Shown here: positions 40,301-43,300 of the stretch, in pieces
How positions within the stretch are numbered: position 1 is the stretch's first letter
Layout: each line of letters starts with the position of its first letter
DNA from: Escherichia coli O127:H6 str. E2348/69
GTDB taxonomy: Bacteria; Pseudomonadota; Gammaproteobacteria; Enterobacterales; Enterobacteriaceae
Assembly (NCBI RefSeq): GCF_000026545.1
Contig: NC_011601.1
Strand: one strand, 5' to 3'
Length of the DNA stretch: 64,000 nt
Made by a program: the position numbers

Positions 40301-43300
40301 TTATAAATCGTACCGTCGTAAGTGCCTAGCTGAATAACGGCGAGGCGGAAAGGACGCGCCTCTTTTGCCCGCTGCGGTGCGACTTCCGCGATCAGTTCAC
40401 GCAGGTAACTTTCTTCAAAACAGTGAGCGTCAATACCACCGATAAAACCATACGGGTTACGTGCGGTTTCCAGATAAACCGGTGTCGCGCCAGCCTGTAG
40501 CAACGCTCCGTGGTGGTTAGATTTGTGGTTATTGCGGTCAAACAGCACCAGATCACCCGGTGTCAGCAGGGCGTTTAAAACCACTTTGTTAGAAGATGAA
40601 GTGCCATTTAGAACGAAGTATGTTTTATCGGCATTAAACACTTTTGCCGCATGTTGCTGTGCAATGCATGGCGCGCCTTCGTGAATCAGCAGATCGCCCA
40701 TTGCCACATCCGCGTTGCACAAGTCAGCACGGAACAGCGCCTCACCAAAGTATTCCACAAACTGATTCCCCGCCGGATGGCGACGGAAAAATTCGCCGCC
40801 CTGATGACCGGGGCAATCAAACGCGCTGTTACCCTGATTGACATAATCGACCAGTGCGCGGAAGAAGGGCGGGCGCAGTTGAGTTTCATAATGGCTGGCT
40901 GCGGTTTCTAACTGACGACCATAAAATTCTCGTCGCGATTCGCAATTCTCAAAGACACCCGAAATACGGGGCAAATACTCTGCGGGTACACGTTCTTGAT
41001 TTTCAGTAGCAATAAATACCGGGATGCCATAACCCGTGGCATCGATTTCATCGAGTTTTCCGCGTGTAACATCGTTGAGCGATAAAACTATTGCCGCCAC
41101 ATCGATATTACTGTTTTCATTAATATCGATACATTTTCGCTGCGTGGTAAAACAGTCCGGGCAAGAATCACTAACCGCAATTTTTAATTTTGACATTTTC
41201 CAACTCTTTATTTTTGGTAATAGCAGGTCCTCAATTTCTCGAATGAGAAATTGATCGTGCCGGAAAAAAAGCAAAGTTGCCCCGCTGATAAATTAATCAG
41301 AAGTTTGCTTTTTTCAGAATGCAGAAACCCTTATCAGTCTGGTGGCTGATAATACAAGGGTTAACAGAGAATGAGCACTGCGGAATACAGGCATATGCCT
41401 GTAATACAGAGAGTCAGGAAGACCTGTACGCTGAAGTGCCCTTAGTCGGTAGACTAACGGGCATTGAAGAAGTGAAAGTCGAAGCTATTGCGATGAGCAA
41501 ACTTCATAATATGAGTTGTCCGCCTTATATGGGGCATAGTGCGGCTGTTATTTTCCATTTAATTTACCTTTCCTGATGTGAATGAAGGTGAAGGTATTCT
41601 ATCCAGGAAATACGGTTGAACTGTGAAGGTGATCAATAAAAAATGATCAATCTTAATTTATTTAATGATGAGCTTTTTACTCAGTAATATAAAATATTGA
41701 ATTGTTATTTTTGTGTGTTATTTAAGATAAAAAGCCGTATTTATTATTACGGCTTTAATTAATAAAAGGCAGGATGTATTAAAATTAATATTCAAAGCAT
41801 AAACCGATACCCAATACCGGTTTCAGTAATGAAATGGCGGGGGCGGGCGGGATCTTGCTCCAGTTTTTGTCGCAGATGCCCCATATAAATACGCAAATAA
41901 TGACTGTGTTCGACCGCGTTTGGTCCCCACACCTGGTTGAGGAGCTGGCGCTGGGTGAGCACTTTTCCCGCATTATTAAGCAACACTGCCAGCAGGCGGA
42001 ACTCAATCGGGGTGAGATGCACCTCTTCCTCGCCCCGATGGATCACACGAGCTGCTAAATCGACGGTAACATCGGAAAATTTCACCAGCGGATCGGGCGC
42101 GGCGGTGGCGGAGTGGCGACGTAAAGCGACGCGCAGACGGGCCTGCAATTCGCCAATGCCAAACGGCTTACTCAGATAATCATCCGCTCCGGCATCCAGC
42201 GCGGCGATTTTGTCGCTCTCTTCGCTACGTGCGGAAAGCACAATCACCGGCACCGCGCTCCACTGGCGCAGGTCGCGGATAAACTCAATCCCATCACCAT
42301 CGGGCAGGCCGAGATCGAGAATAATCAAATCTGGCTTACGGGTAGCCGCTTCCAGCAAGCCGCGTTGCAGCGTTTCGGCCTCAAAGACGCGCATCCCATC
42401 GCCCTCCAGCGCCGTGCGCAGAAAGCGACGAATAGCCTGTTCATCTTCAACAATCAGAACGTTTGTCACATATCCTCATGAAATTCTTCAAGTTCAGGGG
42501 CTGTTTGCTGGGGAAGTGTAACACGAAAACAGGCACCACCTTCCGGTCGGTTGAATGCGGTAATGGTGCCGCCGTGTACATCCACTATCGCCCGACAAAT
42601 TGCCAACCCAAGCCCTACACCCGGTACCGCCGACTCTTTATTCCCGCGAGCAAACTTATCAAATATCGTCTGCTCCTGGCCTGGTGGAAGACCGGGGCCG
42701 TTATCCCAGACATCCAGTTGTAGATTTTCGCCCTCAACGTGGGCATTGATACCAATTTCGGCCTGCGCCCCCGCATATTTCACCGCGTTCTCCAGCAGGT
42801 TAATCAGCACCCGTTCAAAGAGTGGCCCGTCAACGTGGATTAAGGTCAGCGGCTCTGGCAGAGAAAGATTGATGGGCGACGATAAACCCGGTTCCAGCAT
42901 TTGCAGCGCGCTGCCGACCACTTCTTCCAGCGTTAACCACTCTTTCTTCAAATTAAAGCCGCCGGACTGAATTCGCGCCATATCCAGTAGATTATTCACC
43001 AGTCGGGTGGTGTTCAGCACATGCTGACGAATCTCGCTGGCCTGGCGGGCGTGGGGCGATCCTTCGCTTGCCAGATCGAGCGTTAAGATTTCTGCCTGAC
43101 CGAACAGCACCGTAAGCGGCGTGCGTAAATCATGCGAAAGCGCCGCCAGCAGGGCGTTGCGGATCTGTTCACGTTCGCTTGCCATCCGCGCCTGTTCTTC
43201 GCTGGCGGTCAGTGTCAGTCGCTCAAGGGCATTGGCGACTAACAGCGTAAACGTCTCCAGCAGGCGCTGCTGTTCCGGGATCATCAACTGGCGCAGATTC

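What the first reader, a model, noticed from the sequence alone, without database searches (positions are those of the whole stretch)
41197..41791. speFL arrest-peptide leader present and intact upstream of speF
A 34-codon ORF (MENNSRTMPHIRRTTHIMKFAHRNSFDFHFFNAR) is readable on the minus strand at 41454-41558. It matches the described ornithine-sensing leader that controls speF-potE expression via ribosome stalling. It is invisible to a 60-aa ORF cutoff.
Basis: partly seen in the sequence, partly recalled or inferred. Interest (0 to 1): 0.3.

Follow-up and report, generated by a model that had tools for sequence, protein, structure and literature searches.

The report
Known speFL leader peptide, intact
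This is the well-characterised 34-codon speFL leader gene of E. coli, which senses ornithine inside the ribosome to switch on the speF-potE putrescine operon; the copy here is identical to the one studied experimentally, so the finding is correct but ordinary.

Summary
A 34-codon ORF (ATG to TAG) lies on the minus strand at 41558..41454, between kdpE and speF-potE. Its peptide, MENNSRTMPHIRRTTHIMKFAHRNSFDFHFFNAR, matches all 34 residues of the SpeFL chain in the stalled-ribosome structures PDB 6TBV/6TC3. The DNA is 100% identical to E. coli E2348/69, where RefSeq already annotates speFL. Compared with K-12 MG1655 (b4803), the ORF, its Shine-Dalgarno region and the first 113 nt downstream are identical base for base.

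Every published sequence feature is present:
- the HIRRXXH ornithine-recognition motif;
- rare Arg codons AGG-CGG at positions 12 and 13;
- Phe20, 26, 28, 30 and 31 of the effector core;
- a UAG stop codon;
- a pause hairpin spanning the stop codon, followed by a consensus pause element;
- a 257-nt spacer to speF.

An ORF of this length alone is not significant: 72% of shuffles of the region contain one. Its identity and its substitution pattern are what count. Against the other common E. coli leader allele, 13 of 16 differences fall at third codon positions.

Verdict: already known, correctly interpreted, low interest. The only mildly notable by-product is a sharp divergence island between two E. 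coli haplotypes, centred on this leader.

The parts
41454..41558 (-). speFL ORF: 34 codons plus a TAG stop, encoding MENNSRTMPHIRRTTHIMKFAHRNSFDFHFFNAR
   Evidence: It matches the PDB 6TBV/6TC3 SpeFL chain 34/34. RefSeq annotates speFL at the same place in the 100%-identical E2348/69 record. It has no nucleotide differences from K-12 b4803.
41567..41574 (-). Shine-Dalgarno region AGGAAAGG, 8-12 nt upstream of the speFL ATG
   Evidence: Read directly from the sequence. AGGA is the SD reported for Salmonella orf34 (PMC6386406).
41511..41531 (-). Codons 10-16, the HIRRTTH ornithine-recognition motif (HIRRXXH). It includes rare codons ATA11, AGG12 and CGG13 (41528-41520).
   Evidence: Codon listing. 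The motif, Arg12/Arg13 and the role of the rare codons are defined in 10.1101/604074.
41457..41519 (-). Codons 14-34, the C-terminal effector domain with Phe20, Phe26, Phe28, Phe30, Phe31, Asn32, Ala33 and Arg34
   Evidence: Sequence. Residue roles are from 10.1101/604074.
41454..41456 (-). UAG stop codon (read by RF1), which sits in the A site of the stalled termination complex
   Evidence: 10.1101/604074.
41438..41462 (-). RNA hairpin GCCCGUUAGUCUACCGACUAAGGGC. It spans the last codons and the stop codon of speFL and is the published RNA polymerase pause hairpin.
   Evidence: It is predicted both in the 404-nt fold and when folded alone, at -13.0 kcal/mol. The divergent E. coli allele keeps it at -13.6 kcal/mol. 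Its role is described in 10.1101/604074.
41429..41440 (-). Consensus pause element G-11 G-10 ... C-1 G+1 (GGCACTTCAGCG). [quoted passage not shown]
   Evidence: Pattern search: 3 matches in the leader against 1.2 expected, so the position, not the count, is what matters. The element is described in Supplementary Fig. 4 of 10.1101/604074. The Salmonella short transcript ends about 21 nt after the orf34 stop.
41341..41520 (-). C-over-G-rich tract (C/G ratio 1.3-2.0 in 60-nt windows) overlapping the 3' half of speFL and the proximal leader. It is the candidate Rho utilisation (rut) region.
   Evidence: Composition. The published model places a rut site overlapping speFL. The exact boundaries here are my inference.
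41197..41453 (-). The 257-nt speFL-speF intergenic leader. It differs from K-12 at 12 positions, all 113 nt or more downstream of the stop codon.
   Evidence: Length, equal to the 257 nt stated in 10.1101/604074. Differences are listed. The region folds more stably than shuffles (z = -4.6).
41596..41601 (-). Candidate -10 hexamer TAGAAT of the speF operon promoter (inferred, low confidence). A TTCACA at 41627-41622 is a possible -35, but the spacer is 20 nt.
   Evidence: Read from the sequence. The consensus scan found no promoter at its thresholds. The blocks CTTCACAG and TGGATAGAATA are conserved between the two otherwise divergent alleles. The position fits a transcription start about 31 nt upstream of the ATG, as mapped in Salmonella.
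41721..41756 (-). Intrinsic-terminator-like hairpin plus T-run after kdpE. It probably ends the kdp operon and insulates speFL from read-through.
38998..41196 (-). speF, the inducible ornithine decarboxylase (732 aa), the gene this leader regulates
37682..39001 (-). potE, the putrescine-ornithine antiporter (439 aa). It overlaps the speF stop by 4 nt.

Best explanation
The ORF is speFL, the leader (arrest) peptide gene of the speF-potE operon of E. coli, in its canonical K-12 form. The mechanism below is taken from published work on the identical sequence.

1. Transcription starts a few tens of nucleotides upstream of speFL. RNA polymerase pauses just after a hairpin that contains the speFL stop codon.
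2. The first ribosome translating speFL melts that hairpin.
3. When ornithine is low, the ribosome terminates at UAG through RF1 and leaves the mRNA. Slow decoding of the rare codons AGG12-CGG13 keeps following ribosomes back, so a C-rich rut site overlapping the 3' part of speFL is exposed. Rho loads there and terminates transcription before speF.
4. When ornithine is high, one L-ornithine molecule is held between the 23S rRNA tunnel wall and the N-terminal sensor hairpin of the nascent peptide (Pro9, Arg12 and Arg13 within HIRRXXH).
5. The C-terminal effector domain (Phe20/26/28/30/31) then compacts. Asn32 displaces U2585 and RF1 cannot act.
6. The stalled ribosome and the ribosomes queued behind it cover the rut site, Rho cannot bind, and speF-potE is transcribed.

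What is shown here: the presence, exact identity and completeness of every sequence element. What is taken from the literature: stalling, Rho dependence and the structure. What is inferred: that the same mechanism operates in this strain, the exact rut boundaries, and the promoter.
For: - The peptide matches the SpeFL chain of 6TBV/6TC3 34/34.
- Window 41100-41900 is 100% identical to E. coli E2348/69, with speFL, speF and potE annotated. K-12 b4803 has the same layout.
- There are no nucleotide differences from K-12 anywhere in the ORF, its Shine-Dalgarno region or the first 113 nt downstream.
- The 257-nt spacer matches the published construct.
- The rare codons AGG-CGG at positions 12 and 13 and the UAG stop are present.
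- The pause hairpin is predicted at -13.0 kcal/mol, and a GG-N8-YG pause element follows it directly.
- C exceeds G across the 3' half of speFL and the proximal leader.
- Independent comparative support comes from the second common E. coli allele. It differs at 16 of 105 nt, 13 of them at codon position 3. That gives 12 synonymous and 2 non-synonymous codon changes, both in residues 5 and 7, outside the motif and the effector domain. The other two frames are not preserved.
- Pfam PF10940 'Leader peptide SpeFL' is the only Pfam match (E = 4e-5).
- The mechanism comes from 10.1101/604074 and PMC6386406.
Against: - Nothing in the sequence argues against it.
- The Pfam score of 23.8 bits is just under the 25-bit gathering cutoff, and NCBIfam has no matching model. 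This reflects how hard it is to model a 34-aa peptide.
- No consensus sigma-70 promoter was detected, so the transcription start in this strain is inferred.
- Twelve polymorphisms relative to K-12 lie in the distal leader, three of them (41215, 41203 and 41200) within 20 nt upstream of the speF ATG. Their effect on speF translation is unknown.
- No expression or ribosome-occupancy data exist for this window.
Confidence: 0.97

Rival explanations
1. The leader works mainly as an arginine sensor through ribosome pace. Pausing at the two consecutive rare Arg codons when arginine is scarce selects an mRNA fold that resists RNase G. Fast translation when arginine is plentiful gives a fold that RNase G degrades. 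Translation of the ORF also opens a long-range helix that sequesters the speF ribosome-binding site. This is the Ben-Zvi et al. model for Salmonella orf34. It is an additional layer of control, not a true alternative.
For: The AGG-CGG codons are present. The leader folds much more stably than shuffles (z = -4.6). In the predicted minimum-energy fold, the speF SD/AUG region (41204-41196) is paired, here with a nearby U-rich/CCGGC segment at 41267-41259. The experiments in Salmonella are in PMC6386406.
Against: The E. coli spacer is 257 nt, against about 379 nt in Salmonella. The predicted partner of the speF RBS here is local, not the orf34-internal segment reported for Salmonella. The pairing is a single-sequence prediction only. 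The RNase G layer has not been shown for E. coli in the papers I read.
Confidence: 0.3
2. The ORF is a chance open frame in an AT-rich spacer, and the regulatory element is purely RNA (riboswitch-like).
For: An ATG ORF of at least 34 codons occurs in 72% of shuffles of the region. The leader RNA is strongly structured.
Against: The ORF is exactly identical to a peptide seen by cryo-EM inside the ribosome. Substitutions between the E. coli alleles are biased to third positions and are mostly synonymous. No Rfam family matches at E <= 1. A published double-frameshift mutant abolishes ornithine-dependent stalling.
Confidence: 0.01
3. The element is present but regulation is altered or lost in this strain because of the 12 distal-leader polymorphisms relative to K-12.
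For: The differences cluster in 41200-41340. Three of them (41215, 41203 and 41200) lie within 20 nt upstream of the speF ATG, and there are two single-base indels.
Against: speF and potE are full-length. The same leader sequence occurs in three E2348/69-type records at 100% identity, and near-identical leaders (99.3%) occur in many other strains. The much more divergent majority allele also keeps the operon intact. All elements needed for the Rho/stalling switch lie in the part that is identical to K-12.
Confidence: 0.05

Closest known systems
E. coli K-12 SpeFL (b4803; PDB 6TBV/6TC3; Herrero del Valle et al., bioRxiv 10.1101/604074, later Nature Microbiology 2020)
   Same: The peptide is identical (34/34). 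The ORF, SD, pause hairpin and proximal leader are identical in DNA. The 257-nt spacer and the kdpE / speFL / speF / potE gene order are the same.
   Different: Only 12 polymorphisms in the distal leader and 4 upstream of the ORF. Downstream of potE the strain has pgm directly, without the ybfP-ybfG-ybfI segment of K-12.
Salmonella Typhimurium orf34 (Ben-Zvi et al. 2019, PMC6386406)
   Same: A 34-codon leader ORF upstream of speF with consecutive AGG-CGG Arg codons and an AGGA SD. It shows Rho-dependent premature termination about 21 nt after the stop codon and requires complete translation of the ORF.
   Different: The stop codon is UGA in Salmonella and UAG here. The leader is longer (speF AUG at +516, orf34 at +32). 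Long-range RBS sequestration and the RNase G/arginine layer are demonstrated only in Salmonella.
TnaC leader of the tnaCAB operon
   Same: It works the same way. A free amino acid bound in the exit tunnel, together with the nascent leader peptide, blocks release-factor action at the leader's stop codon. The stalled ribosome masks a rut site and prevents Rho termination (stated in 10.1101/604074; PMC8429421 listed).
   Different: The peptide sequence is unrelated, the ligand is tryptophan and the binding site in the tunnel is different. TnaC terminates at UGA with RF2. It is not the same family.
Second E. coli speFL allele (e.g. strain 447, WP_001312672.1: MENNNRLMPHIRRTTHIMKFAHRNSFDFHFFNAR)
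   Same: It has the same length, motif, effector domain, UAG stop, pause hairpin and pause element.
   Different: It carries S5N and T7L, 16 nt differences in the ORF and a 51-nt insertion in the leader, giving a 309-nt spacer. The promoter-proximal region is only 58-60% identical. It is the commoner allele, found in 3346 genomes against 1701.

Membership tests
SpeFL ornithine-sensing arrest peptide | Short ORF (about 34 codons) on the same strand as speF, within 500 nt upstream of it | tested here: met
   The ORF is at 41558..41454 and speF starts at 41196, a 257-nt spacer. The criterion is from the paper's Methods.
SpeFL ornithine-sensing arrest peptide | HIRRXXH ornithine-recognition motif at residues 10-16, with Pro9, Arg12 and Arg13 | tested here: met
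   P9-H10-I11-R12-R13-T14-T15-H16.
SpeFL ornithine-sensing arrest peptide | Effector-domain hydrophobic core: Phe26 (strictly conserved) plus Phe20, Phe28, Phe30 and Phe31 | tested here: met
   F at positions 20, 26, 28, 30 and 31 of the translated peptide.
SpeFL ornithine-sensing arrest peptide | [quoted passage not shown] | tested here: met
   AGG and CGG, preceded by the rare codon ATA. Both are retained in the divergent allele.
SpeFL ornithine-sensing arrest peptide | Sequence identity to an experimentally characterised member | tested here: met
   34/34 identity to the SpeFL chain of 6TBV/6TC3, E = 7.6e-20.
SpeFL ornithine-sensing arrest peptide | [quoted passage not shown] | tested here: met
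   The hairpin is at 41462-41438 (-13.0 kcal/mol) and GGCACTTCAGCG at 41440-41429. The rut site is supported only by C>G composition, so that part is indicative.
SpeFL ornithine-sensing arrest peptide | Ornithine-dependent, puromycin-resistant ribosome stalling at codons 33/34, and Rho-dependent control of speF | not testable with these tools
   Shown experimentally for the identical sequence in 10.1101/604074, but not measured for this strain.
Pfam PF10940 (SpeFL, formerly DUF2618) | Score at or above the curated gathering cutoff of 25 bits | tested here: inconclusive
   23.8 bits, E = 4e-5, residues 8-33 on profile positions 6-31 of 40. This is the only Pfam hit but falls just under the cutoff. 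NCBIfam gave no hit.
Rfam RNA leader or riboswitch families | Covariance-model match in the leader | tested here: not met
   No match at E <= 1 in 41000-42000 on either strand.

The most novel reading that the evidence does not exclude
The leader itself is not novel. The most novel reading my evidence leaves open concerns its population genetics. E. coli carries two old, sharply bounded haplotypes of the kdpE-speF control region. The type in this window has a 257-nt spacer and occurs in about 31% of complete genomes. The other has a 309-nt spacer with a 51-nt insertion and occurs in about 62%. The two might be maintained because they set different thresholds or conditions for speF-potE induction, while the SpeFL sensor and effector residues stay fixed.
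Probability: 0.12. Interest if true: 0.3.

Novelty: already known. Interest (0 to 1): 0.05.

Why it matters
It matters only as an annotation point. Short leader ORFs such as speFL are missed by length-based gene callers, and this one decides whether the acid- and ornithine-inducible putrescine pathway (speF-potE) is expressed. The copy in this window, from an enteropathogenic E. coli E2348/69-type genome, is the canonical functional form and is already annotated in RefSeq, so no new biology follows. The comparison of the two E. coli alleles does give a clean natural confirmation that selection acts on the peptide sequence, not only on the RNA.

Tried and rejected
- The Rfam scan of 41000-42000 at E <= 1 found nothing.
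- The NCBIfam scan of the peptide found nothing.
- The sigma-70 consensus scan found no promoter, so the promoter assignment rests on inter-allele conservation and the Salmonella start site only.
- I first read the megablast result (only 1700 of 5398 genomes covering the query) as absence of the operon from most E. coli. That was wrong: those genomes carry a divergent allele that megablast cannot see.
- The antisense 85-aa ORF (41319..41576, +) was considered and rejected. It has no credible Pfam match, and stops break it in all frames in the other allele.
- The 25-aa ORF directly upstream (41559..41636, -) has no family match.
- The terminator-like hairpin at 41286-41270 was considered as an intrinsic attenuator. 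Its stem is weak (3 G-C pairs among the 7). In the folds its U-run pairs instead with an upstream A-run or with the speF RBS. Its role remains unresolved.
- I did not run the large protein-database or genome-collection scans, because identity to the solved structure had already settled the question.

Full report
**Observation.** Read on the minus strand, window 41558..41454 is a 34-codon ORF starting with ATG and ending with TAG. The span given in the finding, 41197-41791, is exactly the intergenic region between the kdpE stop codon (41794-41792) and the speF start (ATG at 41196). Upstream on the same strand are kdpD and kdpE. Downstream are speF (732 aa, 41196..38998) and potE (439 aa, 39001..37682, overlapping speF by 4 nt). 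An ORF of this size is not remarkable in itself. The region is 35% GC, and 1439 of 2000 shuffles contain an ATG ORF of at least 34 codons. The opposite strand holds an 85-aa ORF that means nothing. The case therefore rests on identity and conservation, not on the open frame.

**Identity.** The peptide matches all 34 residues of the chain named SpeFL in PDB entries 6TBV and 6TC3 (E = 7.6e-20). Window 41100-41900 is 100% identical to the chromosome of E. coli E2348/69 (O127:H6). There RefSeq annotates 'leader peptide SpeFL' (WP_211180488.1) at the corresponding position, between kdpE and speF. K-12 MG1655 has the same arrangement, with speFL as b4803. Aligning window 41150-41830 with K-12 gives 16 differences. 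None lies in the ORF. Four lie upstream: one in the kdpE coding end, two in the kdpE-proximal spacer and one at 41594. Twelve lie in the distal leader at 41340 or further downstream, which is 113 nt or more past the stop codon. Pfam PF10940, now titled 'Leader peptide SpeFL' and formerly DUF2618 (as cited in the paper), is the only Pfam match. Its 23.8 bits fall just under the 25-bit gathering cutoff. NCBIfam has no matching model, and no Rfam family matches the leader.

**Anatomy against the published description.** Herrero del Valle et al. (10.1101/604074) define the following features. All were checked in the window:
- The ORF lies within 500 nt upstream of speF and is separated from it by 257 nt. 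The spacer here is 41453-41197, which is 257 nt.
- A sensor domain covers residues 1-13, with Pro9 and the HIRRXXH motif at residues 10-16. Here the sequence is P-HIRRTTH.
- Rare Arg codons sit at positions 12 and 13. Here they are AGG and CGG, preceded by the rare codon ATA.
- An effector domain has Phe26 at its centre plus Phe20, 28, 30 and 31, then Asn32. All are present.
- The stop codon is UAG, read by RF1. It is present.
- A hairpin contains the 3' end of the ORF and pauses RNA polymerase. Here it is GCCCGUUAGUCUACCGACUAAGGGC at 41462-41438. It is predicted both within the 404-nt fold and alone, at -13.0 kcal/mol.
- A consensus pause element G-11 G-10 Y-1 G+1 follows. Here it is GGCACTTCAGCG at 41440-41429, starting inside the 3' arm of the hairpin. 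It puts the predicted premature 3' end at 41430, 24 nt past the stop. This is close to the roughly 21 nt measured by 3' RACE in Salmonella.
- A rut site overlaps the ORF. Here C exceeds G by 1.3- to 2.0-fold in 60-nt windows from about 41520 to 41340. This is indicative only.

An AGGAAAGG Shine-Dalgarno region lies 8-12 nt before the ATG. AGGA is the SD reported for Salmonella orf34.

**Comparative evidence.** The first megablast result looked as if most E. coli genomes lacked the locus, because only 1700 of 5398 covered the query. That reading was wrong. Those genomes carry a second leader allele that is too divergent for megablast to find. The window/K-12-type ORF is in 1701 of 5426 complete genomes, and the other type is in 3346. 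The second allele encodes MENNNRLMPHIRRTTHIMKFAHRNSFDFHFFNAR. The two ORFs differ at 16 of 105 nucleotides, 13 of them at third codon positions. Twelve codons differ synonymously. Only two change the amino acid (S5N and T7L), and both lie outside the HIRRXXH motif and the effector domain. The other two reading frames are not preserved and contain stops. The rare AGG-CGG pair, the UAG stop, the hairpin (-13.6 kcal/mol) and the pause element (GGCACCCCAGCG) are all kept. This is the pattern expected for a translated peptide under purifying selection. It agrees with the published finding that a double frameshift abolishes stalling. The antisense 85-aa ORF is interrupted by stops in every frame in the second allele.

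**Mechanism.** This account is taken from experiments on the identical sequence and is inferred to apply here. After the ORF is transcribed, RNA polymerase pauses at the hairpin, and the leading ribosome melts it. At low ornithine, RF1 releases the peptide. Slow decoding at codons 12-13 keeps trailing ribosomes off the rut site, so Rho binds and terminates transcription before speF. At high ornithine, a single L-ornithine is held between the 23S rRNA (C462-U464, A751, A788-A789) and Pro9, Arg12 and Arg13 of the nascent chain. The Phe-rich effector domain then compacts, Asn32 displaces U2585 and RF1 is excluded. The stalled ribosome and the ribosomes queued behind it mask the rut site, and speF-potE is transcribed.

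Work on Salmonella orf34 adds two further layers. Translation of the ORF opens a helix that sequesters the speF ribosome-binding site, and arginine acts through RNase G in a way that depends on ribosome pace at the Arg codons. In the window, the predicted minimum-energy fold pairs the speF SD/AUG segment (41204-41196) with 41267-41259. This is consistent with some form of RBS occlusion, but it is a single-sequence prediction, and the pairing partner differs from the one described in Salmonella.

**What remains uncertain.** The promoter was not detected by the consensus scan. A TAGAAT at 41601-41596 and the flanking blocks conserved between the two alleles fit a transcription start about 31 nt upstream of the ATG, as in Salmonella. 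The best -35-like hexamer, TTCACA at 41627-41622, is 20 nt away, which is too far for a standard sigma-70 promoter. The effect of the 12 distal-leader polymorphisms, three of them (41215, 41203 and 41200) within 20 nt upstream of the speF ATG, is unknown. Stalling, Rho dependence and ornithine induction were not, and could not be, measured for this strain.

**Verdict.** The element is the canonical speFL, already annotated and mechanistically and structurally characterised. Novelty: already known. Interest: low.

**Side observation.** The two E. coli haplotypes are about 100% identical through most of kdpE. Identity drops abruptly to 58-60% immediately after the kdpE stop. It stays at 74-87% through speFL, the leader and the first 400 nt or so of speF, and returns to about 100% near 39300. 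The potE protein accession is the same in both. This is a sharply bounded divergence island centred on the control region. It was not followed up further.

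Noticed in passing
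window 39300-41800, compared with L004 (E. coli strain 447) 5100-7700: There are two deep haplotypes of the kdpE-speF control region in E. coli. Identity falls from about 100% in kdpE to 58-60% right after its stop codon, stays at 74-87% across speFL, the leader and the speF 5' end, and recovers to about 100% near 39300. The window/K-12 type is in 1701 of 5426 complete genomes and the other type in 3346. About 380 genomes match neither by megablast.
   Followed up: partly
L004 about 5600-5650, corresponding to an insertion point near window 41357: The majority allele carries a 51-nt insertion in the leader (TTAAACTCTAAATAATTCGAGTCGCAGCACATGCAACTTGAAGTATGACGA), which lengthens the speFL-speF spacer from 257 to 309 nt. 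From memory it resembles the two ends of an ERIC/IRU repeat with the middle deleted. I did not test this.
   Followed up: no
window 37625-37682: pgm ends 56 nt from the potE stop codon, and the two genes converge. K-12 has the ybfP-ybfG-ybfI segment (two of the three are pseudogenes) next to potE on this side, so that segment is absent here and in strain 447.
   Followed up: no
L005 (E. coli MB10) 1501-2276: In some strains an IS1A element is inserted inside speFL after about nt 75, and speF-potE is missing downstream. A similar 60% truncated match exists for the other allele (H77).
   Followed up: no
L003 (E. coli WCHEC025970) 401-505: This is a SpeFL T14K variant, a change in the XX of HIRRXXH. 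RefSeq annotates it as 'hypothetical protein', and it sits next to a frameshifted speF pseudogene. Several genomes share this one-base variant.
   Followed up: no
window 41265-41318 (minus strand): An A-run (GAAAAAAGCAAA) and a U-run (UUUGCUUUUUUUC) in the distal leader are predicted to pair as a long hairpin. In another fold, the U-run/CCGGC segment pairs instead with the speF Shine-Dalgarno/AUG. The consensus scan also flags 41286-41270 as terminator-like. This may be an RBS-occlusion switch, but it is unverified.
   Followed up: partly
window 41633-41652 (minus strand): TTGATCATTTTTTATTGATCA is a near-perfect repeat of TTGATCA separated by a T-run, upstream of the candidate promoter. It is largely conserved between the two otherwise divergent alleles. 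It could be a regulator binding site, but I found no evidence for that.
   Followed up: no
window 41454-41558: Pfam's own SpeFL model (PF10940) scores the canonical E. coli SpeFL at 23.8 bits, below its 25-bit gathering cutoff. NCBIfam has no matching model. Profile-based annotation would therefore miss this gene.
   Followed up: yes
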